Shown here piece by piece: positions 11,383 through 35,345 of a DNA stretch of 64,000 bases. A program made the translations under genes and the position numbers. The DNA lies in the NCBI GenBank assembly GCA_964484005.1, contig CAZADR010000001.1, positions 43,927-107,926 on the forward strand, read 5' to 3'. Every line of letters starts with the position of its first letter. Positions within the stretch are counted from its first letter, which is position 1. Below the pieces are notes generated by a model. It did no database searches. It saw nothing but the letters and a program-made list of their open reading frames with translations, and had not been told where the DNA came from. Source of the DNA: an uncultured Candidatus Saccharibacteria bacterium. Lineage in GTDB: Bacteria > Patescibacteriota > Minisyncoccia > Phycocordibacterales > UBA9973.

Positions 11383-11631
11383 TTATTTTAATTTAGATTC
11401 TAACTCGTCAACTCTTACTTTTAGTTTATTATGATCTTCATATTTGACTCGAGTTACAACAAAATCATCTATTCTTTTATTTGTACCTTCGAGTTGGTTT
11501 TTAACACCTTTTATTTCTTCTTTAACTTCATTAATTCTTGTATCAATTTTTTCTTCTACCTTAGAAAAACTTCTATTTATTGATTCAAGTAATTCTTTGT
11601 TTGTTATTTCCTTTTCTTTTTTATTAGTCAT
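11383..11631 (-). CDS. Small coiled-coil hypothetical protein
   Basis: ORF only, with charged heptad-like sequence. Confidence 0.3.
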   Translation of the reverse strand: MTNKKEKEITNKELLESINRSFSKVEEKIDTRINEVKEEIKGVKNQLEGTNKRIDDFVVTRVKYEDHNKLKVRVDELESKLK

Positions 11632-11858: not shown

Positions 11859-11867
11859 GGGGGGGGG
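11859..11867. repeat. G9 homopolymer tract in the promoter region of the giant surface-fibre gene
   Basis: Nine consecutive G in a roughly 33% GC genome. It lies between a TTGCGG -35-like hexamer (11855-11860) and a TAAAAT -10-like hexamer (11876-11881), 38 nt before the ATG at 11905. Confidence 0.9.
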
Positions 11868-11904
11868 TTATATGTTAAAATATATAGGTTAGCGAAATAT
11901 TAAT

Positions 11905-14900
11905 ATGCTCAAGAAACCATTTATAAAAAGATTACTTTTTTCAAGCTTTTTTGGTTTGTCGTTTTTCTTTGTGTTTTTCTTTTCTGCCGTTAATCCTGTT
12001 TCTGCTTTTGATTTTAATTTTGATCTAAACTCTACTACAATCAAAGCTTCCACTTTGTCTGCCAATTTATCAGAAAATGCTTGGGATTTTTATGTTGTTA
12101 ATGTGGTAGAGCCAACTAATAATGTTTTACAAGAAGTAATTAATTTTTTTCTAGATTCAAATACTTACCAAGTTGTTTTGCCAGAAACTCCACTCCAAAC
12201 AGTTACTTCTTTTTTAAACAATACTTATAACTCTTATAACAATTACATCTTAAGACCAGGCGTAGCAGCTATTGAAAAATCAAATGTAACTTTTACAAAA
12301 ATAACTGACAATATTACAGTACCCAAAATTAGTGTTCCCAAGGTGGGCATGGTAGCAAATGTATCAAGTATTATTGATGGTGTAAACAATTTCAGTAACA
12401 CTCTCTTTTCTCTCTACGACGAATATGTCATTGATCCTTTGGCACAATTGTGGGGAGGGATATTTTTTAATATTTCAAATAATTTAAACAAAGTACCGCC
12501 AACATCGGTAGTAAAAATAGAAACTCCTCCAGCCAAAACAGAGATAGAGCCTAAGCCTCTATCTGGGTCTCCAATAGTTTACCTAAACAATAATCCTTCA
12601 ACCAATCGAGGTCTACAGGGTCCTCAAGGAATACAAGGACCAATGGGGCCACAAGGACCCACTGGCGAGAGAGGTTCATCTGGGAGTGACGGTAATACGA
12701 TAGACACCTCTTCCTTCGTCTCTGAAACTGATTTTGATAATCAAGTAAATGCCCTCTTAAATTCTATTGAAAATGGTCTGTCAGGTTTGTCTGAATCTAT
12801 CTCTGAAGAAGTCAATACAGATTTACTGACAGTAGCAGGCAATGCCACTATCGGTGGAGATTTGATGGTCAATGGGCAAGGAATATTTACCCGAGTTCCC
12901 ACTCTGGCTCATGCCTTCGCTCCTTCATGGCCACTCGGTGTTTCTAATGTTGCCGATGCCACTCTCTACATTAATCCTGCTTCTTCAGTAGCAAGTGGCA
13001 ACTTGATTGGCGCTGCCATAAACGGCACAGTAAAATTCATCGTTGATGCTGACGGAAATGTTTATGCCAATAATATGATCCTAAATGGGAGCGTCACTAG
13101 TGGCGCGACGACTGTTTCCAGTTTGTCGGTGTTGGACAATACTATCCTAGGAGATGCTGGCGTAGATACGATTACGGTAAATGGCAGAATTAATTCTGAT
13201 TTAACCTTTACGACTGACAACACCAATGATATCGGAGCAAGCGGTGTTAACAGAGCTAGGACTGGATATTTTGGTACTTCCATAATTTCTCCTGTAGTCA
13301 ATGCCACCACCGGCGTGCAAATTGCAGGTGCCGCCACGACCGGCACAATCCTGCGTGGCAACGGTACAAATTATGTGCCTACCACCGCCACTTTTGCTGA
13401 TACATACACAGCCAGCAATTTGCTCTATTCCAACGGCGCGAATACTGTTGCCGGTTTAGCGACGGCTAATAGCGGAGTCTTGGTTACTAATTCAACCGGA
13501 GTGCCATCTATTTTAGGTTCTATGACCAACGGTCAATTAGTGGTCGGCTCAACCGGCGCGACTCCTGTTTTGGCAACAATTACCGGTACCACCGATCAAA
13601 TCGTCGTTACTAATGGCGCGGGCACAATTACTCTTTCTATTCCGCAAAGCATTAATACCACTTCTACTCCACAATTTGCCAGATTGGGGGTCGGAGTCGC
13701 GGCGGACGCTACCAATATTCTGACCGCCACCTCCGCTTCCGCCACCGACCTTTCTAAAACTTTAAATATAACTCACACCGGAGCAATTACTGGTACAGGT
13801 TATGCCGGATACTTTACAAAAACTGGAGTATCTACAACAAATGTCGGCCTTTATGCTACTGCAACGGGAGCTACAAATAATTATGCGGCGATATTTGAGA
13901 ACGGCAACGTCGGCATCGGGACGACGAATCCGGGGGCGAAGTTGTCAATCAACACTGATTATTGGAATAACGCATATTTTCCCGCTGGTACGGTTATCGG
14001 TGCATATTTAGGTGCAGCGTATGCAGGATTTTTTGCTAGTGGTGCGGGCGATACTTCTAGAATAACATTAGGAAATGGAGGAACTGGGTATCAGAGTTAT
14101 ATAGAAAATTTAGCGGGAGGAGCTGGTAGTCTTAGTATTGTCAATAACAATGGCCCTGTTTTGTTTAGTGGAACCGGCAACGTCGGCATCGGGACGACGG
14201 CACCAGTTCAAAAACTTGATATGGTGGTTGGGGCGGGAGATGGTACTCAAAATGAAGCTGTTGGTATCCGCTTACGAAATACTTCTGTTGTTGGTAATAC
14301 AAACACTTTACAAATAGGTCTTAATTCTACATTTAATGCTGGTGCAGCACAGCCAGGCTATGGTTACCTTCAATCAGTTTATTGGGGAGGAAGTGTCAAT
14401 GCCCTGATTTTGAATCCTCAAGGTGGTCCAGTTACAGTTGGAACTGCTACTGATTTTAATCCAGGAGGATTTTTAGTAAAGGGAATTACTTTAGTTTCTT
14501 CTCCTACTCGTGCTGGAAATACTTTAATGGGAGGACTAGGTTTTACACATGGAGCAGGATATACACCTATTTCCGCTTCCATTTATGGAATCTATGATAA
14601 ATCTGTATGGTCTCAAGGTGCGGGTTTAGTATTTAATACAGTTTCAGGGGCAGATATTTCAGGTTCATCTGGTGTCGAGAGAATGAGAATTAGCTCAGAC
14701 GGCAACGTCGGCATCGGGACGACGGGGCCAGGGTCTCATCTTCAGATTGACGGTAATATTTCAGCAGCATCTTGGACTACCGATGGTATAGCTTTTGATT
14801 CTAACGCCGCCACTTTCACAGACACCAGTACAGCCGGAGCAGGAACTGTAGCCGTAAGAACCGCTAACAGTTTCGGAGCACCAACTTTCGCATCTACAAA

Positions 14901-15906
14901 CGCAATCACAGTAACTGACGCCTTCACTTTATATGTTCCCAAACCAATCGCTGGAACAAACACCACTATTACCAGAGCCAACTCTGCTTACTTTGAGGGG
15001 AATGTCGGGATTGGTCAAGTAGCACCAGCTTACGCCCTAGACGTCCTAGCCACCGGTACCGGAGTCATTGCTAGATTCAATAGTACCAATGCTACCGGTT
15101 GTACATTAGCTGATGGAGGAACCATCACCTGTACTTCAGATGTCAGAATGAAGAAAAACATAGAAGATATTACTTATGGTCTAGAAACCATCAAAGGTTT
15201 AAGACCCGTCTTATTCAATTGGAAATATGAAGATGATACTACTTCAAAAAACCTCGGTTTCATCGCTCAAGAAGTGGAAGCCCTAGTACCCAAACTCATC
15301 GCTACTGACGAAAACGGCATGAAGTCTTTAAATACCACCGCTATGATTCCTATTTTAACCAAAGCCATACAAGAAATGAATCTAAATCTTGAAGGAGTTG
15401 CAGGTACGATTACTCCGCTCGAAGCCTCTCCTAATGAATCTTTTGTCACTACTTTTTTTGATAATTTATTTAGCAAAGTTACCGTTTGGCTCGCTGATGC
15501 GGGGAATGGAATTGGTAAGATATTTACAACCGAAGTGGAAACCAAAAATCTCTGCGTCTCGGATGATAGCGGAGAAAAAACATGTATTACAAAATCACAG
15601 CTCGATGCCTTACTTTTAAATGCAACCGTCAGCCCTGCACCTGTGCCAGTACCCGAACCAATACCGGACCCTGTTCCAACTCCAACTCCAACTCCAACTC
15701 CTGATCCAACACCATTACCAGATCCTGTACCTGTAGTACCTCCGACATGTACTCTGCCTCAAGTCTTAGATACAACCACGAATACTTGCGTAGATCCCGC
15801 GCCAGTAATTCCGACTTGCACCCTGCCTCAAATTTTAGAAAATAATGTTTGTGTAGATCCTGTACCAACTCCACCTGCTGACACCACACCGCCAGTAACG
15901 CCATAA
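11905..15906 (+). CDS. Giant secreted tail-fibre-like surface protein with a collagen-like Gly-X-Y segment, repeated GNVGIGTT beta-structure units, a C-terminal peptidase_S74 intramolecular-chaperone autoprocessing domain, and a Pro/Thr-rich Cys-containing tail
   Basis: Signal peptide present. GLQGPQGIQGPMGPQGPTGERGSSGSDG is collagen-like. NVGIGTT(N/A/G)P recurs four times. SDVRMKKNIEDITYGLETIKGLRPVLFNW...GFIAQEVEALVP matches the endosialidase/tail-spike chaperone domain (S74). The C-terminus is PAPVPVPEPIPDPVPTPTPTPTPDP plus a TCTLPQ(V/I)L...C(V)DP motif twice. Confidence 0.85.
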   Translation: MLKKPFIKRLLFSSFFGLSFFFVFFFSAVNPVSAFDFNFDLNSTTIKASTLSANLSENAWDFYVVNVVEPTNNVLQEVINFFLDSNTYQVVLPETPLQTVTSFLNNTYNSYNNYILRPGVAAIEKSNVTFTKITDNITVPKISVPKVGMVANVSSIIDGVNNFSNTLFSLYDEYVIDPLAQLWGGIFFNISNNLNKVPPTSVVKIETPPAKTEIEPKPLSGSPIVYLNNNPSTNRGLQGPQGIQGPMGPQGPTGERGSSGSDGNTIDTSSFVSETDFDNQVNALLNSIENGLSGLSESISEEVNTDLLTVAGNATIGGDLMVNGQGIFTRVPTLAHAFAPSWPLGVSNVADATLYINPASSVASGNLIGAAINGTVKFIVDADGNVYANNMILNGSVTSGATTVSSLSVLDNTILGDAGVDTITVNGRINSDLTFTTDNTNDIGASGVNRARTGYFGTSIISPVVNATTGVQIAGAATTGTILRGNGTNYVPTTATFADTYTASNLLYSNGANTVAGLATANSGVLVTNSTGVPSILGSMTNGQLVVGSTGATPVLATITGTTDQIVVTNGAGTITLSIPQSINTTSTPQFARLGVGVAADATNILTATSASATDLSKTLNITHTGAITGTGYAGYFTKTGVSTTNVGLYATATGATNNYAAIFENGNVGIGTTNPGAKLSINTDYWNNAYFPAGTVIGAYLGAAYAGFFASGAGDTSRITLGNGGTGYQSYIENLAGGAGSLSIVNNNGPVLFSGTGNVGIGTTAPVQKLDMVVGAGDGTQNEAVGIRLRNTSVVGNTNTLQIGLNSTFNAGAAQPGYGYLQSVYWGGSVNALILNPQGGPVTVGTATDFNPGGFLVKGITLVSSPTRAGNTLMGGLGFTHGAGYTPISASIYGIYDKSVWSQGAGLVFNTVSGADISGSSGVERMRISSDGNVGIGTTGPGSHLQIDGNISAASWTTDGIAFDSNAATFTDTSTAGAGTVAVRTANSFGAPTFASTNAITVTDAFTLYVPKPIAGTNTTITRANSAYFEGNVGIGQVAPAYALDVLATGTGVIARFNSTNATGCTLADGGTITCTSDVRMKKNIEDITYGLETIKGLRPVLFNWKYEDDTTSKNLGFIAQEVEALVPKLIATDENGMKSLNTTAMIPILTKAIQEMNLNLEGVAGTITPLEASPNESFVTTFFDNLFSKVTVWLADAGNGIGKIFTTEVETKNLCVSDDSGEKTCITKSQLDALLLNATVSPAPVPVPEPIPDPVPTPTPTPTPDPTPLPDPVPVVPPTCTLPQVLDTTTNTCVDPAPVIPTCTLPQILENNVCVDPVPTPPADTTPPVTP

Positions 15907-16380: not shown

Positions 16381-16416
16381 GTAGACGAATACAAAGAACT
16401 TTGTCGCTATGAACGT

Positions 16417-22134: not shown

Positions 22135-23727
22135 ATGTTGAAAAAAATAAATTTCTCTAGCACAGGTAAACTTCTTCTTTTTTTATTTATAATTTTACCT
22201 TTTCTTTTTCAAGGAAATACTCAAACTTTCGGACAAACTGTTTCGGGTTGTACTTCTTCTGGACCATATAACACGATTACAGGCGAACTTTGTAATACTG
22301 GAACTGCGAGTGGGTGTCTCCCTGGTTATTTATTTAGCTCAACGACAGGTAAGCTTTGTCCAGTTGTAACTTCTACCACTCCACCATCAACTCCTTCTGT
22401 GGGTTCTTTGGCAACCTTGAACTATGTAAAAGATTTATTGAGAATTAGATCTACATATCAATATCCTCAATTTATATATGGAGCTACTGTGGCAAATAAC
22501 AAATTTATATTTAGAGGGAAAGGTTGTTTGCAAAATATGGCAAATACGGGTACTGGTGGAGGTGTGTGGATTGCATCAGAAGATGGTTCCACTATTACTG
22601 AAAGAGATACTTGCATGGATGCTGGTGCGCCACAAAGAAATAGAGGTGCTTCTTTTCACGGACAGACTACTTCTGGTAATATCTTTTTAAACTGGAGTGG
22701 AGATGGATTTGTTAAGGAAAATATTTCTGCCGGTCCCGAAGAGGCAAATCACGCTGTGTATTATAGTAAAGCTGGAATTCCTAGATCATCTTCTCCTTTG
22801 CACCTTTATAATAATGATTTAATTGTTTTAAAAAATAGAATACTTGCACCCAATTCTCGTAGGGATTATTCTTCCCGTGATTTAATAAGCTTGCCCGACT
22901 GGAAACTTATTGGGACTGCCGCTGTTCCTTCCGGATTTGAAGGAAGAAGTTTTTCTGGTTTTGGTTTTGGTGATTTTATGGTTTATCCTGTTGATGGATC
23001 TCTTTTCTCAGTTTCCAAAACTGGTGAAATTAAAAAAATCAAAAATCTTCCAAGTGCTGAACATATTTATCGTATTGGAAATTCCTTAAGTTATGGTTTT
23101 GACTATTCCACGACACCAGCAAAGCTTGCTGTTATGGAGGTCAATAGATCATATGTTGTGGGTCAACAATTTGCTAATAATCGTAAAATATCCGTTTACA
23201 AGCTTTCTTTGGGTGGTGTAACTTTAGACAAAGTAATTAATCTTCCAGATGATGATGCTTTTCCATCAGTGAGAGGAGATTATGCTTTGAACAGTTTTGG
23301 AATTTGGGGTGATTATGTTGTAGTAGGAGCTCAGGATAGAAGTTATAAGTTCCACGAACTTCAACTTTGGAAGGGGGGTCAAAAAATACACACTCTTACA
23401 ATAAACAACGAAGCTGCTCCAGACCACATATTAATTTCTAAAAATGGATATGTGGCAACTTCAATGTGGTCAAGTACATTTAAAGTTCTTGGAGAATTAA
23501 ATGATGATGGACAACCTAAAACTGAAGGAGGAACAGCAGCCATTCTTTATAAAATTAAAGTACCTACCTCAAATACAATTCCAATTCCAGGGCCAGGAGG
23601 CATTCCGGTGGATGTAAATTGTGACAATGCTTCAGGTAGCTTGGCTGATCTTTGTAAGCAGTATAAAGAGATATTAAGAAAAACCTGTCTTGTGGCTCCA
23701 AATATTGCTATTTGTCAGAATCAGTAA
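22135..23727 (+). CDS. Secreted hypothetical protein (530 aa) with an N-terminal Cys-spaced repeat
   Basis: Signal peptide. Repeats CTSSGPYNTITGELC / CLPGYLFSSTTGKLC. No enzymatic motif recognised. Confidence 0.55.
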   Translation: MLKKINFSSTGKLLLFLFIILPFLFQGNTQTFGQTVSGCTSSGPYNTITGELCNTGTASGCLPGYLFSSTTGKLCPVVTSTTPPSTPSVGSLATLNYVKDLLRIRSTYQYPQFIYGATVANNKFIFRGKGCLQNMANTGTGGGVWIASEDGSTITERDTCMDAGAPQRNRGASFHGQTTSGNIFLNWSGDGFVKENISAGPEEANHAVYYSKAGIPRSSSPLHLYNNDLIVLKNRILAPNSRRDYSSRDLISLPDWKLIGTAAVPSGFEGRSFSGFGFGDFMVYPVDGSLFSVSKTGEIKKIKNLPSAEHIYRIGNSLSYGFDYSTTPAKLAVMEVNRSYVVGQQFANNRKISVYKLSLGGVTLDKVINLPDDDAFPSVRGDYALNSFGIWGDYVVVGAQDRSYKFHELQLWKGGQKIHTLTINNEAAPDHILISKNGYVATSMWSSTFKVLGELNDDGQPKTEGGTAAILYKIKVPTSNTIPIPGPGGIPVDVNCDNASGSLADLCKQYKEILRKTCLVAPNIAICQNQ

Positions 23728-25022: not shown

Positions 25023-25096
25023 TCCGGGGTAGCTCAGCGGTAGAGCGGTCGCCTGTTAAGCGATTGGTCGTAGGTTCGATCCCTACCCCCGGAGCA
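25023..25096 (+). tRNA. tRNA-Asn (anticodon GUU); serves as an integration site
   Basis: TCCGGGGTAGCTCAGCGGTAGAGCGGTCGCCTGTTAAGCGAT...GTAGGTTCGATCCCTACCCCCGGAGCA. The last 14 nt overlap the 3' end of the serine recombinase ORF on the opposite strand. Confidence 0.9.
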
Positions 25097-26642
25097 ATGT
25101 TTTGTATTTAGTGCTATTTTCACTTTTTACCTTACTGGTATTAGGTTTTTTGAGTTCGAATTTATTTTGAGCGTCAATTCTCTCTTGAATCCTCTTTGAA
25201 ATCTTTTTTACTGAACTCTTTAAAACAGTATCAGCTTTCTTGTCTTTCAAGATTAGGTTCGCGAAAATGTGAGATAAGAGCAACCGGCGTTCTTCTGGGC
25301 TTCTCTTTTCGTATATTTCTCTGGCCCGGCGTGCGAGATCCAAGATGTTTATATACAACTCAAAATATTTTGTTTCCTCGTTCTTCAACTTGGTTATTTG
25401 ATTTTGGATTTCAGCTTGCTCGGTGTTTATCTCTTTCTGCTTCGCTTCCCACCTTTCTTGGGTTATTTTTTCGGACAATCTGTCATTGTAGAGTATATCC
25501 AGTTGCCTCTGTAAAGCGTTATAGCGAAGATCTAGGGCTTTAAGAGTATTTTCCTTGTATTCGGATTCTAGCTTATGATCTGCCTTAATTTTGTCCCTTA
25601 TGAGGTCTGCCTCTTTTTCAGTTATATTCTCAAAGAAACGGAATGCTCCTATCAAGGAAACATCCAGATCAGTTTCTTTAGTCATTCCTTTTTGGGAACA
25701 GGGCCGGTTGTGTTTGCAAGAATAATAAACAATTCCTTTTTGTATCTCACCACTTATTGAACCTCCACATTCTCCACACTCAATCATTTTACTGAACTGA
25801 AAGGTATGTCTTTTGTAATGCGGTGATTTACCTCGTGTAAGTGTAAATTGCACCTTATCAAAAAGCTCCTTCGATACCAACGGTTCGTGCTTTCCGTTAT
25901 GCACAAAATCGTTCCATCTTAATAATCCCATATAAAATGGGTCGCGTAGTATATCTTCCAATCTACTCTTTGAGAGCTTACTACCATTTCTAGTTCTTAA
26001 TCCATCCTCATATAATTTTTCCCGCAAACCAGTTAGAGAGTAATTTCTGGTTGCGTAATACTCAAATGCTTTCTTGATAAAGCGACTTTTATCTTCATCT
26101 ATGATATGAATTTTGTGTCCCTTTTCACCGATCGTTTTATATCCTATTGGAGGTTTTGCCGGTAGCCATCCCTGTGCAATTTTTTCTTTCTGACCCTTTT
26201 TAACTTCTTCCGAAAGATTAGAAATATACTTCTTCGCAAGGACTATTTCAATATCCCAACGAAACTTCTCGTCTGATTTGGCGTATCTGTGTATTACTAG
26301 ATTTTGTTTCACGAAATGTATCTGGTGTTTTTCGTCTGCCTCTATCCAATCATTCGCAGTTATTGCGTCCACAAAATTTCTTGTAAGACGATCCACCTTT
26401 TCACAAAGTAAAATAGGAACATCTTTCTTTTTTAGATATTCCATCATTTCCCCGAATATCTTTCTTTGCTTTGCGCCACTAGCAGATTCTGCCGGAGCGA
26501 ATGACCTAACTACCTCAAAACCTTTCCTGTTTGCATATTCTACAAGCAACTTCTCTTGGGAGGGCAAAGAATAACCAGTTTCTTCTTGTTCCTTTGAGGA
26601 TACTCTGCAATAAATTACGCATTTGATTCTAGTTAGATTCAT
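25083..26642 (-). CDS. Large serine recombinase (integrase), copy 1; C-terminus encoded within the tRNA-Asn 3' end
   Basis: VIYCRVSSKEQEETGYSLPSQ catalytic Ser region. DRLTRN. C-terminal zinc-ribbon and coiled-coil typical of large serine recombinases. The stop codon TAG lies at 25083-25085 inside the tRNA. Confidence 0.85.
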   Translation of the reverse strand: MNLTRIKCVIYCRVSSKEQEETGYSLPSQEKLLVEYANRKGFEVVRSFAPAESASGAKQRKIFGEMMEYLKKKDVPILLCEKVDRLTRNFVDAITANDWIEADEKHQIHFVKQNLVIHRYAKSDEKFRWDIEIVLAKKYISNLSEEVKKGQKEKIAQGWLPAKPPIGYKTIGEKGHKIHIIDEDKSRFIKKAFEYYATRNYSLTGLREKLYEDGLRTRNGSKLSKSRLEDILRDPFYMGLLRWNDFVHNGKHEPLVSKELFDKVQFTLTRGKSPHYKRHTFQFSKMIECGECGGSISGEIQKGIVYYSCKHNRPCSQKGMTKETDLDVSLIGAFRFFENITEKEADLIRDKIKADHKLESEYKENTLKALDLRYNALQRQLDILYNDRLSEKITQERWEAKQKEINTEQAEIQNQITKLKNEETKYFELYINILDLARRAREIYEKRSPEERRLLLSHIFANLILKDKKADTVLKSSVKKISKRIQERIDAQNKFELKKPNTSKVKSENSTKYKTLLRG

Positions 26643-26687: not shown

Positions 26688-27245
26688 TTAACCACCAGCT
26701 AAAAATGTCATTTTATCTCTTATTTCTTTTTTTCTTTTATTTATCTCTTCTTGCTCTTCCAAATTGCTTCCAAAGCATATATCTCTGTTTGTTTTCTCTG
26801 GGGTATTCTCTGTATAGATAGTTTGCTTAAATTTACTAGCCAGTTTGCAGGATTCAGCAAACTGGTTTGCGGACACTGGCATATTTATAAAAGATTTTAG
26901 TATAGCGACAAGTTTATTTTTGTTTATGTGGAAGTACCTCTTTCTAGGAATACCACGAAGTTCTACTTCAAGCACATCGAGTTTCTTCCAAATTTTTATC
27001 GCCTTTTCTTGTTGGCTTCTAGTTAAACAGCTTTCTTGGTAAATTTCCCTTATTGTTTTATAAGTCCAATCTGGGTCTGAACCTTTGTTATCCCAATAGA
27101 GTAACTGTGATAGAAAAAGCCCAGCAGTTGCACTTTTAGCTAATCTGCCGAGTATTGGATTAAATGCGATAGGTTTTGCACCCAATATTTCAATAATAAG
27201 AGAGTTGTAGTTTGTATTAGCCCTGCCTTGATTTTTGTTTTTCAT
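26688..27245 (-). CDS. Winged-HTH protein resembling the replication-initiator RepA_N / DnaD-like N-terminal domain
   Basis: ATAGLFLSQLLYWDNKG...WTYKTIREIYQESCLTRSQQEKAIKIWKKLDVLEV resembles the RepA_N pattern. Low-confidence family call. Confidence 0.4.
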   Translation of the reverse strand: MKNKNQGRANTNYNSLIIEILGAKPIAFNPILGRLAKSATAGLFLSQLLYWDNKGSDPDWTYKTIREIYQESCLTRSQQEKAIKIWKKLDVLEVELRGIPRKRYFHINKNKLVAILKSFINMPVSANQFAESCKLASKFKQTIYTENTPEKTNRDICFGSNLEEQEEINKRKKEIRDKMTFLAGG

Positions 27246-27623: not shown

Positions 27624-30041
27624 TTATTTATCGTTATCTTTCTTCTTCTTTTCAGCTTTAGGTTTTTTAGATTTTTCGCGAGCTATTTTTTCTTCCATTT
27701 CCTTGCCAAATTTACTATCCACAATAAAAGAACCCCACACTTCAAAAATAAATTTATCTATATCATATTGTTCAACAACTTGATACATCATTGCTTCTGC
27801 ATCATCGCGGATGCTCAATGATCCGTTAATACTTTCTCTTTCGTAATCATCGCGCCACCTCCATAATTCTCGTTTTAATTGATCCTTATGAGGTAATCCC
27901 AAAACATTGTGGTCTTCAGGATCAACTCCGGCAGGCAAATTAGTAAGGTGTTTTGCAAAATACTTTGCTTCAAATTCTGTGATTTTTATTTTCAGATCAG
28001 CAAATATATCCATCCATCCCTTTTTTAGAGCAATAATGCCTAAATAACAGGCCTTTTCTAAAACTCTTGGTTCGTTGTATCCATATCCTCTTGTAGTTTT
28101 TTGCAAAGTATCTTTTGTTATTGAATAAAGACAATTTATACAATCTTGAACGAGCGCTTTGTCTTCCAATTTTTCTGCTACAATTATGCCTGTTTTTGCA
28201 ACACTATCTGTAAGGGTGTTGAAAGGATTTGAGCCACCATCAAACTTCTCGGCGTGGCTTACAAAAAAACTTGGCAGGTGGATGTTCCAAGCTAGACGGC
28301 TTTTTAATTCAGTCACATCTTTTTTAAAATCATCATCTTGTATTAGATCAACTATAAGATTATTTATATTGAACAGAAGACGACCTATACTATCAGTAAG
28401 AGTTGTGTCACAGCTTTTTACTGTTTCCGATAAAATCCGCAAACTCATATTTAATTCACGAAAGAACTCTATTAGATTTCTTTTATACCTATCCTTTTCT
28501 CTTGTATCTGTAATTTTAGAATAATGTTCCATTATTACCGCAAGGGTGGTGTAAAACTCATCATAACCCTTACTTAAACTGAAACGAGTTTGTATATCGT
28601 CAGGAAGCAAACCAGCTTTAATAAAATTATTGATGTGATTTGCGATGGTAGCAATGTTTTTTAAAGCGCCCTTGATATGTATCTGTCTATCAATATCAGG
28701 ACTAGTAAATACTGCGCTAATGATACGAAGAAATGTCGTGGAACAGAGATCCACAATAATGGTTTGTTTTTGAGATAGACCATAAATGGCTACACTCATT
28801 ATTTTATCTAGTAGTCCGTGAAGTGTTAAAGAAAGTCCTTTCTGTGAAGCTATAACTGCGATATCACGAAGCACTTGCAAACCTTTATAAACGACCTCTA
28901 TATTTTTTGCTCGTTGTCCGCTTTCAATGTAAAAGTTTAAATTTCCCAGTATTAGATCTAATATGGGGTTTTCGTTTCTCTGGCTTATGAAAGTGATTTC
29001 TTGTGCCTTGCCTGCCAATCCGCGATAAATATCAATTATATAGGTAGCAAGTTCGTCCTTGCCATCTTTGATAAACTTTTCTCCCGCCTTATTTAATCTT
29101 TCAAGATTTTTATTAACGAAAGTTTGGCTATCACTTTCTACTGCAAGAAATACTGTGCCAGATGGTAGTATGAGGGATGAGGTTTTTCGTGCTTCAAAAA
29201 ATCTAATCAGTATTCTATAAACTGCTGTGAACCCTCGCTTGGTAGTGCCTACCTCTTGCTTGTCGCTTAATTTTAATGAAATCTCTACAAGATTTTCTAT
29301 TTGCCTATCAAGGTTTATCATAAACGGCTGTAAAAATTGATTATATGCTTGGGCAAGTCCCATATCGTTAGTGATAGAGGGATTTCTGGTGTGAAGCAAA
29401 TCAGCTAACCGTTCTGCATCGGATTGCAATTTATTTAAAAATCTCACTCCCTCTTTTTCTAAAAAAGAAATTGCTTCTGACGGGTTTAGTTTTTGCCGGA
29501 CATTTTTATATTGCCAATCTATCAAAGCAAAAACGGCTCCAACTAATACAAGAGATAACAATACTATTCCCGAACTGATGTTATGTAAAATTGTTGTTAA
29601 ACTTCCAACATAAAGCCCACCGCCTAAAAATAAGAGTGTGATAATTATCACTACAAAATAAACAAACTTTTCTTTCCAGTCGTGTATAAAAACCTCAAAA
29701 TACTGGGATGAGTAAAGCTCTGCCGCACTCTGAATAAGGAAAATTGAAATAGTGAATACTATCGCAATAGTGCCTCCGGTCATTGCTCCGAGAGCGACTA
29801 GATAATTGCTTAAAATATCTTGCGTAAAGTTTAGTCCGCCAAAATAATTTACTATTAAGCCAATACCAAGACCGATTACTAAAAAAGATAGTCGTCTCAT
29901 CCAGCCAAAATGTTTTCCCAGAGATGATAAAAATCTTTTCCATCTTCCCAGATATAACCACATTGTCAGCTTGTAGCTATATTTTAGGTATTGAAGCCAT
30001 CCCTGTTTCCACTCTTTTATTTCTGCTAATAAAAGTTTCAT
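27624..30041 (-). CDS. 805-aa polytopic membrane protein of unknown function with a large helical cytoplasmic domain and a K-rich C-terminal tail (element cargo)
   Basis: About 5 N-terminal transmembrane helices, a long alpha-helical region and a KSKKPKAEKKKKDNDK tail. No recognised catalytic motif. Confidence 0.6.
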   Translation of the reverse strand: MKLLLAEIKEWKQGWLQYLKYSYKLTMWLYLGRWKRFLSSLGKHFGWMRRLSFLVIGLGIGLIVNYFGGLNFTQDILSNYLVALGAMTGGTIAIVFTISIFLIQSAAELYSSQYFEVFIHDWKEKFVYFVVIIITLLFLGGGLYVGSLTTILHNISSGIVLLSLVLVGAVFALIDWQYKNVRQKLNPSEAISFLEKEGVRFLNKLQSDAERLADLLHTRNPSITNDMGLAQAYNQFLQPFMINLDRQIENLVEISLKLSDKQEVGTTKRGFTAVYRILIRFFEARKTSSLILPSGTVFLAVESDSQTFVNKNLERLNKAGEKFIKDGKDELATYIIDIYRGLAGKAQEITFISQRNENPILDLILGNLNFYIESGQRAKNIEVVYKGLQVLRDIAVIASQKGLSLTLHGLLDKIMSVAIYGLSQKQTIIVDLCSTTFLRIISAVFTSPDIDRQIHIKGALKNIATIANHINNFIKAGLLPDDIQTRFSLSKGYDEFYTTLAVIMEHYSKITDTREKDRYKRNLIEFFRELNMSLRILSETVKSCDTTLTDSIGRLLFNINNLIVDLIQDDDFKKDVTELKSRLAWNIHLPSFFVSHAEKFDGGSNPFNTLTDSVAKTGIIVAEKLEDKALVQDCINCLYSITKDTLQKTTRGYGYNEPRVLEKACYLGIIALKKGWMDIFADLKIKITEFEAKYFAKHLTNLPAGVDPEDHNVLGLPHKDQLKRELWRWRDDYERESINGSLSIRDDAEAMMYQVVEQYDIDKFIFEVWGSFIVDSKFGKEMEEKIAREKSKKPKAEKKKKDNDK

Positions 30042-33680: not shown

Positions 33681-35345
33681 TTAATACGCTAAAAGTGACT
33701 TTATTTCAGCCAATGCTATACTAGGAAAAGGATATTCTTCGAGCCAATTTATAGTTCGAAAGTCGTCCACAATACCGAGCAATGTTTTGTATTTATAGTC
33801 AAAATCAGACTTTTGTATTGGAGATACAAGGCTTTTTTGTAGTTCGTAGACTTCATTTAGCTTAGGAATCCATTCAAGCAGATATTTGCATGCTAAATTG
33901 TAATTTGGCTTTATTTCATTTACGTTTTGTGCGAAGTTCGTAAATAATTGAGCAAACAATAACCTCTTTTCATCTGTAAGTGCTTGCTCGTAAATTTCTT
34001 TAGCCTTGAAAGCTAATTCGTGGATTATTAAACGCAACTCTTGGTAATCATCGCTTTGGCTAACAACTTTTTCAAGCGTAGATTCAAGGGCATCTTCTTC
34101 AGTTTTACATTCAGCAATCTTTCTTTCGCAATATTCAAGTGGTACTTCTTTGTTTATTGTTGCCTCAAAATATTTATCTTTCTGTTTTCTTATGCTTGTG
34201 AGTAGCCCATTCAGTCTTTGAATTTCAGTTTCCCTTAACTTCACATTCTCAGCATTTTCTTCCAAGATAATTCCTTCAATCCATTTTAGTACCGCTTCAT
34301 TCTTAGGGGCTATTTTAAAGAATACGGGGTCTACCTGCTTTTCTACTTCTTCCTCCTTGATATAGGTCTTTTTGGTGCAATGACGAGATTTTAAGTGGTT
34401 ATTACAATGTCCATAAAGAATACCTTTTTGTGTTTCCCAGCTCAATACTCCGCCACAACCATCACAAAAGATTTTTCCTTGAAATAAATAATTGTGCTTG
34501 GTGGTAATAACATTTTTACCTCTTCTTTTAAGAACACTTTGTGCTTTCTCAAATAAGTCTTTGGTAATTAAAGGCTTGTGTTTTGCTGGGTATATTTCAC
34601 CTTTCCATTTCATTTTGCCATAGTAGAATGGGTCTTGAAGTAATTCATAGATTCTACTTTGTAAAACTTTATTTCCATTTGTTGAACGAAGCCCCGTTTT
34701 ATACATTTCATCCTCAAGACTTTGTATAGAATAGTTTCCCGTAGCATATAGCTCAAACATTTTTCTAATATGCGGAGCAACCCCATCATCAATCACATGT
34801 ATTTTGTGTCCTTTGTCCCCAATAGTTTTATATCCAGTTGGTGGTTTGGTTGGCAACCATCCTTGTGCTATTTTTTCTTTCTGCCCCTTTTTCACTTCTT
34901 CGGAAAGGTTAGCTATATATTTCTTTGCAAGAACAATCTCAATATCCCAACGAAATTTTTCGTCCGATTTGGCATACTTGTGTATTACAAGGTTCTGCTT
35001 AACAAAGTGAAGCTGTCTTTCTTCATTAGCCTCAATCCAATCATTTGCTACGACTGCTTCCTTGAGGTTTCTGGTGAGTCGGTCAACTTTTTCACACAAA
35101 AGAATTTGAATATTATTTTTTCCCATATAGCCCATCATTTCAGCAAAGATTTTTCTTTGTTTTGTTCCACTTGCAGATTCTGCAACAGAAAAAGGTTTTG
35201 CCACTTCAAAACCTTTTCTATTTGCATATTCAATTAGTAATTTTTCTTGCGAGGGAAGCGAGTACCCCGTATCCTCTTGTTCTTTTGATGATACACGGCA
35301 ATAAATAACGGCTTTATTCTTTGTGTTTTTTATTTGAGTTTTCAT
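33681..35345 (-). CDS. Large serine recombinase (integrase), copy 2, full length
   Basis: VIYCRVSSKEQEDTGYSLPSQ...DRLTRN, roughly 60-70% identical to copy 1 over the catalytic domain. An internal site at 33777-33795 repeats the copy-1/tRNA junction sequence. Confidence 0.85.
   Translation of the reverse strand: MKTQIKNTKNKAVIYCRVSSKEQEDTGYSLPSQEKLLIEYANRKGFEVAKPFSVAESASGTKQRKIFAEMMGYMGKNNIQILLCEKVDRLTRNLKEAVVANDWIEANEERQLHFVKQNLVIHKYAKSDEKFRWDIEIVLAKKYIANLSEEVKKGQKEKIAQGWLPTKPPTGYKTIGDKGHKIHVIDDGVAPHIRKMFELYATGNYSIQSLEDEMYKTGLRSTNGNKVLQSRIYELLQDPFYYGKMKWKGEIYPAKHKPLITKDLFEKAQSVLKRRGKNVITTKHNYLFQGKIFCDGCGGVLSWETQKGILYGHCNNHLKSRHCTKKTYIKEEEVEKQVDPVFFKIAPKNEAVLKWIEGIILEENAENVKLRETEIQRLNGLLTSIRKQKDKYFEATINKEVPLEYCERKIAECKTEEDALESTLEKVVSQSDDYQELRLIIHELAFKAKEIYEQALTDEKRLLFAQLFTNFAQNVNEIKPNYNLACKYLLEWIPKLNEVYELQKSLVSPIQKSDFDYKYKTLLGIVDDFRTINWLEEYPFPSIALAEIKSLLAY

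What the first reader, a model, noticed from the sequence alone, without database searches (positions are those of the whole stretch)
11905..15906. Giant tail-fibre-like surface protein with a collagen-like stretch and a self-cleaving S74 chaperone domain, sitting among core genes
A 1333-aa secreted protein combines four modules. It has a collagen Gly-X-Y run of about 10 triplets. It has four copies of an NVGIGTT(N/A/G)P blade motif of the kind seen in phage tail fibres and spikes. It has a C-terminal peptidase_S74 intramolecular-chaperone domain, SDVRMKKNIEDITYGLETIKGLRPVLFNW...GFIAQEVEALVP, which in endosialidases and T5 L-shaped fibres cleaves itself off after trimerisation. It then has a PT-rich tail carrying two TCTLPQ(V/I)L-CxDP repeats. 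No phage structural genes flank it; the neighbours are tgt on one side and a GC-shifted nuclease cassette on the other. This looks like a cellular fibre or adhesin that has taken over phage tail-fibre folding machinery, which would be relevant to host attachment in an episymbiotic CPR lineage. The released PT/Cys tail is an unexplained extra module.
Basis: partly seen in the sequence, partly recalled or inferred. Interest (0 to 1): 0.75.

Follow-up and report, generated by a model that had tools for sequence, protein, structure and literature searches.

The report
Tail-fibre-like surface protein in CPR bacterium
A tiny, probably host-dependent (CPR/Patescibacteria) bacterium encodes in its own chromosome a long fibre protein that most likely folds like a virus tail fibre; it resembles the prey-grabbing fibres of the predator Bdellovibrio and is a plausible but untested host-attachment device.

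Summary
ORF 11905..15906 (+) encodes 1333 aa. It has an N-terminal Sec-type signal or anchor, 10 Gly-X-Y triplets and four NVGIG blade motifs. Its Peptidase_S74 domain scores 53.6 bits against a cutoff of 22, with an SDxxxK dyad (S1078/K1083) invariant in 40 relatives. A Pro/Thr tail carries two Cys-loop repeats.

It is a resident cellular gene, not a prophage fibre:
- GC3 (0.316) matches its neighbours.
- mreB-mreC-tgt-[fibre]-argDC synteny recurs in related Paceibacteria/Nomurabacteria genomes.
- No capsid, portal, terminase or tail-tube family ranks among the families shown for 132 neighbour ORFs of 50 related loci.
- Phage similarity is limited to aa ~896-1181.

The closest characterised system is the Bdellovibrio MAT (mosaic adhesive trimer) fibres. 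The only PDB hit to the shaft is Bd2133, aligned on the blade motif.

New points:
- The "extra module" is a conserved ~65-aa post-S74 domain with no Pfam match. It has 2,132 cluster representatives, 79% preceded by S74, and was not found in the phage collections searched.
- The gene is mosaic with a paralog from the same samples.
- A G9 tract, the only one in the 64-kb window, sits in the putative promoter. The paralog has G8, which hints at phase variation.

Trimerisation, cleavage, surface display and adhesion are inferred. Verdict: new variant of a known kind; interest 0.55.

The parts
11859..11867 (+). G9 homopolymer in the putative promoter, 38 nt upstream of the ATG; candidate slipped-strand (phase-variation) tract
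   Evidence: It is the only G/C run of 8 or more in the 64-kb window, where 0.04 are expected. The paralog has the same 35-nt core with G8. G7-G9 tracts lie upstream of three other family genes.
11873..11881 (+). TGTTAAAAT, an extended -10-like element directly downstream of the G tract
   Evidence: Read directly from the sequence. The element is conserved in the paralog promoter. The consensus promoter scan itself was not informative.
11905..15906 (+). Fibre gene, 1333 codons plus stop
   Evidence: ORF listing. The identical protein is present on three independent assemblies.
11905..12006 (+). aa 1-34: Sec-type signal peptide or signal anchor (MLKKPFIKR, 20-residue hydrophobic core, NPVSA|F)
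   Evidence: Sequence inspection. Relatives have either similar signal peptides with an A-x-A-like site, or HTH_17 domain(s) followed by a transmembrane helix, at the same end.
12007..12609 (+). aa 35-235: Asn/Val/Ser/Thr-rich N-terminal region with almost no detectable relatives
   Evidence: aa 36-160 has no hit in 55 related loci or 166 family proteins, and aa 161-235 hits only P0015. The database search returned nothing, but it also failed to return the protein itself, so this negative is weak.
12610..12699 (+). aa 236-265: collagen-like run, 10 G-X-Y triplets
   Evidence: Direct count and chance expectation of about 3e-7. Runs of 5-9 triplets occur at the equivalent position in P0002-5, P0009, L014, L017, L022, L023, L031, L036 and L041. 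Pfam Collagen scores 20.7 bits, below its cutoff.
12700..12834 (+). aa 266-310: amphipathic 'neck' (FDNQVNALLNSIENGLSGLSESISEEV), probable coiled coil
   Evidence: It holds the highest helical hydrophobic moment in the protein. It is 75% identical at the DNA level to the paralog and 46-73% identical at the protein level in 7 loci.
12826..13314 (+). aa 308-470: strongly conserved shaft module (…TRVPTLAHAFAPSWP…DATLYINPAS…)
   Evidence: It is 57-73% identical in otherwise different proteins: P0003, P0005, P0008, P0011, P0012, P0013.
13315..15099 (+). aa 471-1065: Gly/Thr/Ala/Asn-rich shaft, a mosaic of modules, predicted beta-helical
   Evidence: Composition. Modules at aa 466-577, 617-685 and 931-1049 recur at 65-87% identity in different proteins. 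The only PDB hit is the Bd2133 MAT fibre.
13906..13944 (+). Blade / capping-loop motif 1: NVGIGTTNPGAKL
14179..14217 (+). Blade / capping-loop motif 2: NVGIGTTAPVQKL
14704..14742 (+). Blade / capping-loop motif 3: NVGIGTTGPGSHL, preceded by ERMRISSDG
   Evidence: Aligned to Bd2133 (8ond) SERMRIDTSGNLGLGTAAPTSALHV, E=2.1e-4.
15001..15039 (+). Blade / capping-loop motif 4 (variant): NVGIGQVAPAYAL
15100..15135 (+). aa 1066-1077: C-x9-C loop (CTLADGGTITCT) ending at the predicted cleavage site; it would be the distal tip of the mature fibre
   Evidence: Cys positions. Similar C-x(9-12)-C loops sit just before the SD motif in P0002, P0004/5 and P0019.
15136..15402 (+). aa 1078-1166: S74 intramolecular chaperone / autoprotease (Pfam part aa 1078-1131) plus its C-terminal helix; predicted cleavage T1077|S1078, dyad S1078/K1083
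   Evidence: Pfam 53.6 bits. A family profile hits 8jov, 6f45, 7dc3 and 3gud, and the 3gud chain starts at the aligned Ser. S and K are invariant in 40 sequences. The AF2 model has pLDDT 90-97 over this core. Its top PDB match is the MyRF ICA domain, prob 1.00. There are 312 viral chaperone matches.
15430..15624 (+). aa 1176-1240: conserved post-S74 module (helix FFxNxxxxxxxWLADAxNGIxxIF, Cys-Cys beta-hairpin LCVxDxSGxxTCI, helix TKxQLDALL); no Pfam match
   Evidence: Profile A1 finds 2,132 representatives at E<=1e-3 and 734 at E<=1e-10. Of 115 with enough upstream sequence, 91 follow an S74 domain. AF2 secondary structure. No hit in 50,697 phage records or in IMG/VR. Viral chaperone structures do not cover it.
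15625..15903 (+). aa 1241-1333: Pro/Thr-rich low-complexity tail
   Evidence: Composition. Pro/Thr/Glu/Ser-rich tails follow the module in nearly all relatives, with a median of 95 aa to the C-terminus.
15745..15798 (+). Cys-loop repeat 1: TCTLPQVLDTTTNTCVDP
   Evidence: Three copies occur in P0002 and P0003. It is 79% identical at the DNA level to the paralog.
15814..15861 (+). Cys-loop repeat 2: TCTLPQILENNVCVDP

Best explanation
This is a chromosomal gene of a Paceibacteria/Nomurabacteria-type (CPR, Patescibacteria) bacterium. It encodes a Sec-exported, homotrimeric, tail-fibre-like surface fibre of the same kind as the Bdellovibrio MAT (mosaic adhesive trimer) S74 fibres.

Proposed sequence of events:
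1. The N-terminal signal or anchor takes the chain across the membrane (inferred from sequence).
2. Outside the cell, three C-terminal S74 chaperone domains associate. They template the registration of the upstream beta-helical shaft (capped by the four GNVGIGTxxPxxxL loops), the coiled-coil neck and the short collagen-like triple helix. This is inferred from how S74 domains work in endosialidase, T5 pb1, MyRF and Bd3182.
3. The Ser1078/Lys1083 dyad cuts between T1077 and S1078. The residues are shown; the cleavage is inferred.
4. Cleavage releases a 256-aa C-terminal fragment (S74 + conserved post-S74 module + Pro/Thr tail with two Cys loops). It leaves a mature fibre of about 1043 aa whose distal tip is the C1066-C1076 loop.

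The post-S74 module is most likely a lineage-specific extension of the discarded pro-domain, helping trimer nucleation or assembly outside the cell (speculative).

The fibre most likely mediates contact with another cell or surface. For an organism of this lifestyle that would be host attachment (inferred by analogy with MAT fibres and phage receptor-binding proteins).

The repertoire diversifies by module exchange between paralogs. Expression may be switched by slippage of a promoter poly-G tract (suggested, not shown).
For: Domain identity:
- Pfam S74 scores 53.6 bits against a cutoff of 22.
- PHROG tail-fibre families match only aa 950-1180.
- A family profile hits the solved S74 chaperones 8jov, 6f45, 7dc3 and 3gud. 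The released GA-1 chaperone chain begins at the Ser aligned to S1078.
- S and K of SDxxxK are invariant in 40 relatives.
- The AF2 model has mean pLDDT 85, and 90-97 over the S74 core. It matches the MyRF ICA domain (prob 1.00, 119 columns) and 312 viral chaperone models.

Link to MAT fibres:
- The only PDB hit to shaft aa 600-1077 is Bd2133, E=2.1e-4, aligned on ERMRIxxxGNVGIGTxxPxxxL.
- PMC10769870 describes 21 MAT fibres. Thirteen carry S74 with SDxxxK, all have a signal peptide, and they share the capping-loop motif V-G-G/N-pi-x-x-P-x-x-x-L. Cleavage at S782 of Bd3182 was demonstrated and surface localisation shown.

Cellular rather than viral:
- GC3 is 0.316 against 0.235-0.344 for the flanking core genes.
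- mreB-mreC-tgt-[fibre]-argDC-DUF192 synteny occurs in L014, L018, L019, L023, L031, L043 and L044.
- Among 132 nearest-neighbour ORFs of 50 loci, the top families are arginine decarboxylase, LepA/EF, TGT, GatB and MurJ. No capsid, portal, terminase or tube families appear among those shown.
- Five individually inspected contexts are housekeeping.
- Phage tblastn hits cover at most 21% of the protein, at about 30% identity.
- An N-terminal export signal is incompatible with cytoplasmic virion assembly (established knowledge).

Family behaviour:
- 50 loci are almost all labelled Patescibacteria, with 2-3 copies per genome in several.
- The paralog P0002 comes from the same samples. It shares 84% DNA identity over the S74 region, with diverged shafts.
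- Individual modules recur at 65-87% identity in different proteins.

Poly-G tract.
Against: - No experiment or multimer model supports trimerisation, cleavage, surface display or binding for this protein. Only monomer predictions were possible.
- If the signal peptide is cleaved, as the VSA|F site suggests, the mature fibre has no recognisable anchor. Its N-terminal ~200 aa has almost no relatives. MAT fibres, by contrast, have a conserved N-terminal surface-binding domain.
- Variability is not where a tip-swapping adhesin model predicts. The two paralogs share nearly the same distal tip and chaperone, and differ in the shaft and N-terminus.
- The strong conservation of the post-S74 module in 2,132 clusters argues that the 'discarded' fragment does something more specific than act as a spacer.
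- No tract-length variation was seen. All three assemblies of this gene have G9, and all three of the paralog have G8.
- The episymbiotic lifestyle of this particular organism is assumed from its lineage, not shown.
Confidence: 0.6

Rival explanations
1. It is a phage tail fibre: part of a prophage, a cryptic prophage remnant, or a recently captured phage gene with no cellular role.
For: PHROG tail-fibre families match it, best phrog_5668 at E=3.8e-21. There are 194 phage records with tblastn hits. NCBI names a relative 'tail fiber domain-containing protein'. Serine recombinases and a phage-like replication initiator lie 10-20 kb downstream in the window.
Against: - Phage similarity is confined to aa ~896-1181 at about 30% identity.
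- No virion genes lie next to it or next to relatives in 55 contexts.
- The chromosomal position between tgt and argDC is conserved across genomes.
- GC3 is host-like.
- It has an N-terminal export signal.
- The post-S74 module was not found in the phage and IMG/VR collections.
- The mobile-element region is separated from it by argDC, RNase P RNA, tRNA-Ala and a PLD gene.
Confidence: 0.04
2. It is an exported trimeric tailspike-like enzyme (glycan or cell-wall depolymerase) rather than a passive adhesin. In this reading the beta-helical shaft carries a catalytic groove used to digest host capsule or envelope, and the protein may be released rather than retained.
For: S74 domains were first described on endosialidases and occur on tailspike depolymerases (established knowledge; the family name). 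One phage hit is annotated as an endo-N-acetylneuraminidase (H2). After signal-peptide and S74 cleavage no anchor is recognisable. The conserved module at aa 308-470 is more constrained than expected for a mere spacer.
Against: No catalytic domain or enzyme family is detected anywhere in the protein by Pfam, NCBIfam or PDB sequence search. The collagen-like stalk and coiled-coil neck are typical of fibres rather than compact spikes.
Confidence: 0.15
3. It is a structural envelope component of the CPR cell itself: a fibrous coat, spacer or protective layer, possibly a phase-variable antigen or phage decoy. It would have no role in recognising a host.
For: There are several copies per genome. 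Composition is rich in Gly/Thr/Asn and Pro/Thr, as in coat proteins. A promoter poly-G tract is typical of variable surface antigens. Other wall or surface proteins lie nearby in the window: a PG_binding_1/Flg_new_2 protein at 47494..49788 and a Cys-loop secreted protein at 22135..23727.
Against: The closest characterised relatives, MAT fibres and phage fibres, are recognition devices. Mosaic module exchange is the pattern seen in receptor-binding proteins. Nothing here separates adhesion from coat function directly.
Confidence: 0.15
4. The S74 domain folds the trimer but the C-terminal fragment is not discarded. It stays attached, covalently or not. The conserved post-S74 module plus the Pro/Thr tail with Cys loops would then be the functional distal end, or a wall-spanning tether.
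For: The post-S74 module is very widespread and highly conserved: 2,132 clusters with near-invariant W, ADA, NGI, C…C and QLDxLL. It also occurs without S74 in 24 of 115 representatives. The Cys-loop repeats recur in P0002 and P0003. All 8 Cys residues form short-range pairs, as expected for extracellular disulfide loops.
Against: The catalytic Ser and Lys are invariant. In every tested S74 protein the domain is released: endoNF, T5 pb1, GA-1 and Bd3182 (PMC10769870; 3gud chain start). The C-terminus has no LPXTG motif, transmembrane segment or known wall-binding motif.
Confidence: 0.1

Closest known systems
Bdellovibrio bacteriovorus MAT (mosaic adhesive trimer) fibres, S74 subgroup, e.g. Bd3182; also Bd2133 (Caulton et al., Nat Microbiol 2024, PMC10769870)
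   Same: - Both are cellular, chromosomally encoded, about 1000-aa exported fibres.
- Both end in a C-terminal S74 domain with the SDxxxK motif.
- Both have beta-helical shafts with a recurring capping-loop motif. Bd2133 (8ond) aligns to ERMRIssdGNVGIGTtgPgshL at E=2.1e-4.
- Both form multi-paralog, mosaic families in bacteria that live on other bacteria.
   Different: - MAT fibres share a conserved ~130-aa N-terminal domain, with variable C-terminal tips. Here the N-terminal ~200 aa has almost no relatives and the C-terminal end is the conserved part.
- The loop motif has one extra residue between V-G and P.
- This family adds a collagen-like run, a conserved post-S74 module and a Pro/Thr tail. 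Some members have cytoplasmic HTH_17 domains plus a transmembrane anchor.
- The lineage is a CPR monoderm-type cell rather than a Gram-negative predator.
- The paper's table of MAT relatives lists no Patescibacteria.
Phage tail fibres and tailspikes with a C-terminal intramolecular chaperone domain (K1F endosialidase 3gw6, T5 pb1 4uw8, GA-1 neck appendage 3gud, S16/T4-like distal fibre 6f45, 8jov)
   Same: The S74 domain, catalytic dyad and position after a beta-rich trimeric shaft are the same. Short collagen-like runs also occur in phage fibres, seen in the PHROG collagen-like tail hits.
   Different: It has an N-terminal export signal and no virion genes nearby. It sits at a conserved chromosomal locus with host-like codon GC3. 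Only aa ~896-1181 resemble phage proteins. The post-S74 module was not found in the phage collections.
Eukaryotic MyRF ICA domain (7dc3)
   Same: It is the best structural match to the predicted C-terminal domain (prob 1.00, target-normalised TM 0.55-0.60). The family profile also matches it, E=6.9e-11. Both have a trimerising, self-cleaving S74 fold preceded by a beta-helical stalk.
   Different: MyRF is a membrane-tethered transcription factor, and its cleavage releases a cytoplasmic DNA-binding trimer. Here cleavage would be extracellular and would release the chaperone itself.
Bacterial collagen-like surface fibres (streptococcal Scl1/Scl2, Bacillus BclA)
   Same: Both are exported proteins with a G-X-Y stalk between an N-terminal region and a distal part. 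NCBIfam gives weak hits to SclA/SclB over aa 234-264.
   Different: The scores are far below the cutoffs (19.9 against 325 bits). There are only 10 triplets, no LPXTG anchor, and a different trimerisation device (S74).
Phase-variable surface proteins controlled by homopolymeric promoter tracts (e.g. Neisseria Opc/PorA, Haemophilus fimbriae; recalled from established knowledge, not tested here)
   Same: A G9 tract lies immediately upstream of a -10-like element of a surface-protein gene. The tract length differs (G8) in the paralogous promoter, and similar tracts occur in three other family genes.
   Different: No tract-length heterogeneity was observed in the available assemblies. CPR promoter architecture is not characterised.

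Membership tests
Peptidase_S74 / C-terminal intramolecular chaperone domain (Pfam PF13884) | Profile match above the curated gathering score | tested here: met
   53.6 bits against a cutoff of 22, E=2.7e-14, aa 1078-1131, profile positions 1-56 of 58.
Peptidase_S74 / C-terminal intramolecular chaperone domain (Pfam PF13884) | Catalytic Ser-Lys dyad in an S-D-x-x-x-K motif at the start of the domain | tested here: met
   S1078-D-V-R-M-K1083. Both residues are invariant in the 9- and 40-sequence family alignments. They align with the SDERLK/SDRRIK motifs of solved chaperones.
Peptidase_S74 / C-terminal intramolecular chaperone domain (Pfam PF13884) | Fold of the chaperone domain | tested here: met
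   The AF2 monomer model has pLDDT 90-97 over the core. Foldseek matches MyRF ICA 7dc3 at prob 1.00 and 312 viral chaperone models at E<=1e-3. This is a monomer model only.
Peptidase_S74 / C-terminal intramolecular chaperone domain (Pfam PF13884) | Trimerisation-dependent autoproteolysis releasing the domain | not testable with these tools
   This needs expression with and without S1078A, or mass spectrometry. No multimer prediction was available.
Collagen triple-helix repeat (Pfam PF01391) | Profile match above the gathering score | tested here: not met
   20.7 bits against a cutoff of 27.2.
Collagen triple-helix repeat (Pfam PF01391) | Uninterrupted G-X-Y triplets, more than chance | tested here: met
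   10 triplets at aa 236-265, with about 3e-7 expected. Runs of 5-9 triplets occur at the equivalent position in at least 11 relatives.
Bdellovibrio-type MAT fibre superfamily (PMC10769870) | Exported protein (signal peptide) | tested here: inconclusive
   The N-terminus has a basic n-region, a 20-residue hydrophobic core and a VSA|F site, judged by inspection. No signal-peptide predictor was available. Some relatives have an uncleaved HTH + transmembrane anchor instead.
Bdellovibrio-type MAT fibre superfamily (PMC10769870) | Conserved beta-rich ~130-aa N-terminal domain after the signal peptide | tested here: inconclusive
   No MAT N-terminal sequence or structure was available for comparison. 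Within the CPR family, aa 36-160 has no relative and aa 161-235 only one. A shared N-terminal domain therefore looks unlikely.
Bdellovibrio-type MAT fibre superfamily (PMC10769870) | Beta-helix shaft with capping-loop motif V-G-G/N-pi-x-x-P-x-x-x-L | tested here: met
   There are four copies of V-G-I-G-x-x-x-P-x-x-x-L, with one extra residue before the Pro. phmmer aligns two such loops of Bd2133 (8ond) to the query, E=2.1e-4.
Bdellovibrio-type MAT fibre superfamily (PMC10769870) | C-terminal S74 (S74 subgroup) and a multi-copy mosaic family in one genome | tested here: met
   S74 as above. Paralog P0002 comes from the same samples and its longest contig has the same 218,504-bp length. Other genomes carry 2-3 copies. 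The module mosaic is shown.
Bdellovibrio-type MAT fibre superfamily (PMC10769870) | Display on the cell surface and binding of target-cell glycans | not testable with these tools
   This needs microscopy and binding assays.
Phage virion tail fibre | Encoded within a phage or prophage structural module | tested here: not met
   Window neighbours, five homolog contexts, and 132 neighbour ORFs of 50 loci.
Phage virion tail fibre | Full-length similarity to phage fibre proteins | tested here: not met
   No phage record covers 80% or more of the query. The best cover 20-21% (aa ~896-1181) at about 30% identity.

The most novel reading that the evidence does not exclude
Paceibacteria-type CPR bacteria may carry their own large, recombining and possibly phase-variable repertoire of tail-fibre-like receptor-binding proteins that determines which hosts they can attach to. 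These fibres would be assembled outside a wall-bearing cell by a lineage-specific pro-domain (S74 + the conserved post-S74 helix/Cys-hairpin module + Pro/Thr tail). That pro-domain would be a new kind of extracellular trimer-assembly or sorting device with a function of its own, rather than a passive appendage.
Probability: 0.25. Interest if true: 0.8.

Novelty: new variant of a known kind. Interest (0 to 1): 0.55.

Why it matters
How CPR/Patescibacteria recognise and hold on to their hosts is largely unknown. Two papers read here say so explicitly. [quoted passage not shown] PMC10936435 calls for high-resolution imaging of Paceibacteria attachment structures. Type IV pili are the only well-supported device.

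This gene points to a second candidate class with a clear experimental precedent (Bdellovibrio MAT fibres), and it is directly testable:
- a defined cleavage site, T1077|S1078;
- a defined catalytic dyad to mutate;
- a conserved chromosomal locus (tgt/argDC) at which to compare repertoires across genomes;
- a promoter poly-G tract whose length can be read from raw sequencing data.

The conserved post-S74 module also defines a family with no Pfam match here: 2,132 cluster representatives, mostly on giant proteins. It could serve as a marker for finding such fibres in metagenomes.

Tried and rejected
- First AF2 run on the C-terminal region used a 9-sequence alignment. It gave mean pLDDT 55.9 and only marginal PDB matches. 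It was replaced by a 40-sequence alignment, mean pLDDT 85.
- The word-indexed homolog search with the 62-column module profile returned only 3 fragments. The exhaustive representative search was needed.
- Alignment A2 was too diverse for the locus scan. A 3-sequence alignment was used instead.
- Because the locus scan depends on two peptide patterns, its taxonomic restriction is partly by construction.
- The afdb50 fold library was unavailable.
- The promoter/terminator consensus scan found 18 sites against 11.9 expected, which is not informative.
- A metagenome scan for the promoter core with variable G-tract length found nothing, so tract polymorphism could not be assessed.
- The database search with N-terminal aa 35-235 returned nothing, not even the protein itself. 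It is therefore only a weak negative.
- The GC-shift argument for horizontal origin of the fibre gene was rejected. Only codon positions 1 and 2 are GC-rich.
- A defence-system reading of the downstream cassette was not supported. PADLOC gave only Cas4-like nuclease similarity.
- Similarity between the upstream 82-aa coiled-coil ORF and the small MerR/HTH_17 genes upstream of homologs was not found.
- Literature searches combining S74 or intramolecular chaperone with CPR names gave only irrelevant hits.

Full report
**1. What is there**

The ORF at 11905..15906 (+) is real and encodes 1333 aa. The identical protein occurs on three independent assemblies, one of them a 218.5-kb contig.

- Ten uninterrupted G-X-Y triplets at aa 236-265. 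Chance expectation is about 3e-7.
- Four NVGIG motifs at aa 668, 759, 934 and 1033. Three are NVGIGTT(N/A/G)P and the fourth is NVGIGQVAP.
- SDVRMKK at aa 1078.
- A tail with 32% Pro and 18% Thr, carrying TCTLPQVLDTTTNTCVDP and TCTLPQILENNVCVDP.

Pfam gives Peptidase_S74 at aa 1078-1131 with 53.6 bits against a cutoff of 22. Pfam Collagen scores only 20.7 bits against a cutoff of 27.2. All eight Cys residues lie in the last 270 aa and form four short-range pairs (1066/1076, 1217/1227, 1282/1295, 1305/1316), as expected for extracellular disulfide loops. The N-terminus has a basic stretch, a 20-residue hydrophobic core and NPVSA|F. By inspection it looks like a Sec signal peptide or signal anchor.

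**2. The S74 domain is a full, apparently active member of its family**

- A profile of nine family C-termini hits four solved S74 chaperones: 8jov at 2e-16, 6f45 at 2e-12, MyRF ICA 7dc3 at 7e-11, and GA-1 3gud at 2e-5.
- The crystallised, already released GA-1 chaperone chain begins exactly at the Ser aligned to S1078.
- S1078 and K1083 are invariant in the 9- and 40-sequence alignments.
- A first AF2 model from a shallow alignment was poor, with pLDDT 56.
- With 40 sequences the model reached mean pLDDT 85, and 90-97 over the S74 core.
- Its best PDB match is the MyRF ICA domain (prob 1.00, 119 columns). It also matches 312 viral chaperone models at E<=1e-3.
- Cleavage between T1077 and S1078 is therefore well motivated but not shown.

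**3. It is a cellular gene, not a prophage fibre**

- Immediate neighbours are ProRS, MreB, MreC and TGT upstream. Arginine decarboxylase lies downstream, after a four-gene nuclease cassette.
- The raised GC of the fibre gene is an amino-acid effect. GC2 is 0.49, but GC3 is 0.316, inside the 0.235-0.344 range of the core neighbours.
- The PD-(D/E)XK gene and the 180-aa ORF are the compositionally foreign genes, with GC3 0.44 and 0.41.
- Phage tblastn hits (194 records) never cover more than about 21% of the protein. They are confined to aa ~896-1181 at about 30% identity. PHROG tail-fibre hits cover the same stretch.
Five homolog contexts are housekeeping: the dcw cluster, LeuRS, RF, CTP synthase, LepA and MurJ.
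- Among 132 nearest-neighbour ORFs of 50 related loci, the commonest families are arginine decarboxylase (6), EF/LepA (5), TGT (3), GatB (3) and MurJ (3). No capsid, portal, terminase or tail-tube family appears in the lists.
- mreB-mreC-tgt-[fibre]-argDC-DUF192 synteny recurs in L014, L018, L019, L023, L031, L043 and L044.
- In L023 the fibre gene lies directly between tgt and argDC, without the nuclease cassette. The cassette is therefore an insertion.
- The fibre genes at this conserved position differ widely in length (1092-2929 aa) and in N-terminal type.

**4. Lineage**

A scan of species-representative genomes with the S74 + post-S74 alignment returned 50 loci. Almost all are labelled Paceibacterota, Paceibacteria, Nomurabacteria, Parcubacteria, Minisyncoccia or 'Saccharibacteria'. 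Several genomes carry 2-3 copies. The syntenic loci carry MreB at 90-97% and TGT at 75-84% identity to the window, so the window comes from a Paceibacteria/Nomurabacteria-type CPR genome. The scan relies on two peptide patterns, so its taxonomic restriction is partly by construction.

**5. Closest known system**

The only PDB sequence hit to shaft aa 600-1077 is Bd2133 (8ond), E=2.1e-4. It aligns on 'ERMRIssdGNVGIGTtgPgshL' against 'ERMRIDTSGNLGLGTAAPTSAL' and 'ISQAGNVGIGATAPTAKL'. Bd2133 is one of the 21 Bdellovibrio MAT (mosaic adhesive trimer) fibres (PMC10769870). The paper reports the following:

- Thirteen of the 21 end in S74 with SDxxxK.
- All have a signal peptide and a conserved N-terminal domain.
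- Bd3182 was shown to cleave at its catalytic Ser.
- The fibres are on the predator surface.
- The authors defined a beta-helix capping-loop motif, V-G-G/N-pi-x-x-P-x-x-x-L, also seen in MyRF.

The paper's table of MAT relatives lists Oligoflexia, PVC, Alpha- and Deltaproteobacteria, FCB and OP3, but no Patescibacteria. Literature searches combining S74 or intramolecular chaperone with CPR names found nothing relevant.

**6. The 'extra module'**

After the S74 helix comes a conserved ~65-aa unit at aa 1176-1240. It consists of a helix (FFxNxxxxxxxWLADAxNGIxxIF), a Cys-Cys beta-hairpin (LCVxDxSGxxTCI) and a helix (TKxQLDALL). AF2 pLDDT there is about 60-87. A low-complexity Pro/Thr tail follows. 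The whole-protein Pfam scan found nothing over this stretch.

- An exhaustive HMMER search over 1.84 billion cluster representatives found 2,132 proteins at E<=1e-3 and 734 at E<=1e-10. The module always lies near the C-terminus (median 95 aa from the end) of proteins up to 5,201 aa.
- Of 115 representatives with enough upstream sequence, 91 (79%) have S74 directly before it, with a median gap of 21 aa.
- The other 24 lack S74. One of them shows weak Peptidase_G2 similarity, a different autoproteolytic chaperone.
- The module has no tblastn hit in 50,697 phage records.
- It has no hit in IMG/VR with the patterns that found 50 cellular loci.
- Viral chaperone structures align to only about 96-115 of the model's 181 residues.

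It therefore appears to be a lineage-specific elaboration of the pro-domain. Its function is unknown. I favour a role in extracellular trimer nucleation or assembly, but its conservation leaves room for something more specific.

**7. Mosaicism**

A paralog (P0002, 1377 aa) comes from the same samples, and its longest contig has the same 218,504-bp length. It sits after the dcw cluster, outside the window. At the DNA level the two genes compare as follows:

- 84% identity over the last blade + S74;
- 75% over the neck;
- 79% over a Cys-loop repeat;
- elsewhere only short scattered matches of 27-62 nt.

Individual modules (aa 324-426, 466-577, 617-685, 931-1049) recur at 65-87% identity in otherwise different proteins. 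Unlike MAT fibres, the conserved end is the C-terminus. The N-terminal region has almost no detectable relatives: aa 36-160 has none and aa 161-235 only P0015. The database search also returned nothing, but it failed to return the query protein itself, so that negative is weak. Some relatives replace the signal peptide with one or two cytoplasmic HTH_17 domains and a transmembrane helix. That places the N-terminus at the membrane and the C-terminus distal.

**8. A promoter poly-G tract**

The only G/C homopolymer of 8 or more bases in the 64-kb window (0.04 expected) is a G9 at 11859-11867, 38 nt upstream of the ATG. It is followed directly by TTATATGTTAAAATATA, which contains an extended -10-like TGTTAAAAT.

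- The paralog has the same 35-nt core with G8, while its flanks have diverged.
- G7-G9 tracts next to -10-like elements also precede three other family genes.
- One of these, L022, has a second G9 inside its signal-peptide codons.
- In total, 5 of 34 family genes have such a tract within 100 nt upstream. The background of 2.9 runs per 100 kb predicts about 0.1.

This is the pattern of slipped-strand phase variation of surface proteins. No tract-length heterogeneity is visible in the consensus assemblies, and a metagenome scan found no further copies.

**9. Mechanism and confidence**

Shown:
- the domain content;
- the intact catalytic dyad;
- the cellular genomic context;
- family size, mosaic structure and lineage;
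- the sequence link to MAT fibres.

Inferred:
- export, trimerisation, cleavage at T1077|S1078 and release of a 256-aa fragment;
- surface display and adhesion;
- phase variation.

Weak points:
- No anchor is recognisable if the signal peptide is cleaved.
- The two paralogs share the same distal tip.
- The conserved pro-domain extension is unexplained.

I put 0.6 on the MAT-like, S74-matured exported fibre reading. Adhesion is the leading but unproven function. The rivals are a prophage fibre (0.04), a tailspike-like enzyme (0.15), a coat or antigen without a host-recognition role (0.15), and a retained functional C-terminal fragment (0.10).

**10. Verdict**

It is a new variant of a known kind: cellular S74/MAT-type fibres, here in Patescibacteria, with a new conserved pro-domain module and a possible phase-variation switch. 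Interest is 0.55. It is not categorically new, but it is a concrete and testable candidate for the poorly understood host-attachment machinery of Paceibacteria.

Noticed in passing
window 11859-11867 (and L003 9946-9953; L011 4375; L022 946 and 996; L031 3505): The window's only G/C homopolymer of 8 or more bases is a G9 tract in the putative promoter of the fibre gene. The paralog promoter has the same core with G8. Three other family genes have G7-G9 tracts beside -10-like elements, and L022 has a second G9 inside its signal-peptide codons. This suggests slipped-strand phase variation. No length heterogeneity was seen in the assemblies.
   Followed up: partly
window 16021-19305; L056 2633-4253; L023 10801-10930: The downstream 'nuclease cassette' looks like a mobile insertion. 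It begins with a protein carrying an IS1/IS1595-type zinc-binding domain (30.6 bits against a cutoff of 28). Next come a PD-(D/E)XK nuclease and a 180-aa ORF, both with shifted GC3 (0.44 and 0.41), then a TM0106-family RecB/Cas4-like nuclease (TIGR03491, 5e-87). The first three genes recur at 80-83% identity right after a different fibre gene in L056. They are absent in L023, where tgt, the fibre gene and argDC are contiguous.
   Followed up: partly
window 25023-43337: This is a probable integrated mobile element, or two. tRNA-Asn abuts a large serine recombinase (25083..26642, -). It is followed by a replication-initiator O-like protein (26688..27245, -) and an 805-aa multi-pass membrane orphan (27624..30041, -). 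Further along are a second serine recombinase (33681..35345, -), two copies of LOOT RNA (30165-30293 and 37859-37976) and a 519-aa protein matching phrog_30194 (7.5e-30). No capsid, portal or terminase hits were seen among the ORFs tested.
   Followed up: partly
L006/L007 9316-16708; L008 9383-15100; L009 382-12295; L014, L017, L035, L050, L054, L059: Many family members start with one or two cytoplasmic HTH_17 (MerR/excisionase-like) domains followed by a transmembrane helix, instead of a signal peptide. Three inspected loci also have a small divergently transcribed MerR/HTH_17 gene immediately upstream. In L009 two S74 fibre genes lie in tandem, separated by a signal peptidase I gene. A DNA-binding-type domain on the cytoplasmic end of a giant surface fibre is unexplained.
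   Followed up: no
proteins P0007, P0028 and 22 others: The post-S74 module also occurs at the C-terminus of large proteins with no detectable S74 domain. P0028 shows weak Peptidase_G2 (IMC autoproteolytic domain) similarity. The module may therefore partner with more than one type of intramolecular chaperone.
   Followed up: partly
window 22135-23727 (+): A 530-aa secreted protein with no Pfam or PHROG hit. Its N-terminus carries two Cys loops (GCTSSGPYNTITGELC and GCLPGYLFSSTTGKLC) that resemble the C-x-x-P-x-x-L…T-T…C loops of the fibre's tail. It may be a shared small disulfide-loop motif of this organism's surface proteins.
   Followed up: no
window 47494-49788 (+): A 764-aa protein with a Flg_new_2 (InlB B-repeat-like) domain and a C-terminal PG_binding_1 domain. 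It is another probable wall-associated surface protein. A GC peak (0.42-0.49) lies just upstream at 45-47 kb.
   Followed up: no
window 11383-11631 (-): An 82-aa highly charged coiled-coil ORF is transcribed divergently from the fibre gene, at the position where homolog loci carry a small MerR/HTH_17 gene. It has no HTH, only sub-threshold hits (a phage scaffold-like match at 21.7 bits against a cutoff of 35), and no counterpart in the related loci.
   Followed up: partly
(tool behaviour): The database homolog search with aa 35-235 of the fibre returned no hit at all, not even the full-length protein P0001, which is known to be in the collection. Negatives from the word-indexed search on low-complexity or Asn-rich queries should therefore be treated cautiously.
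   Followed up: no
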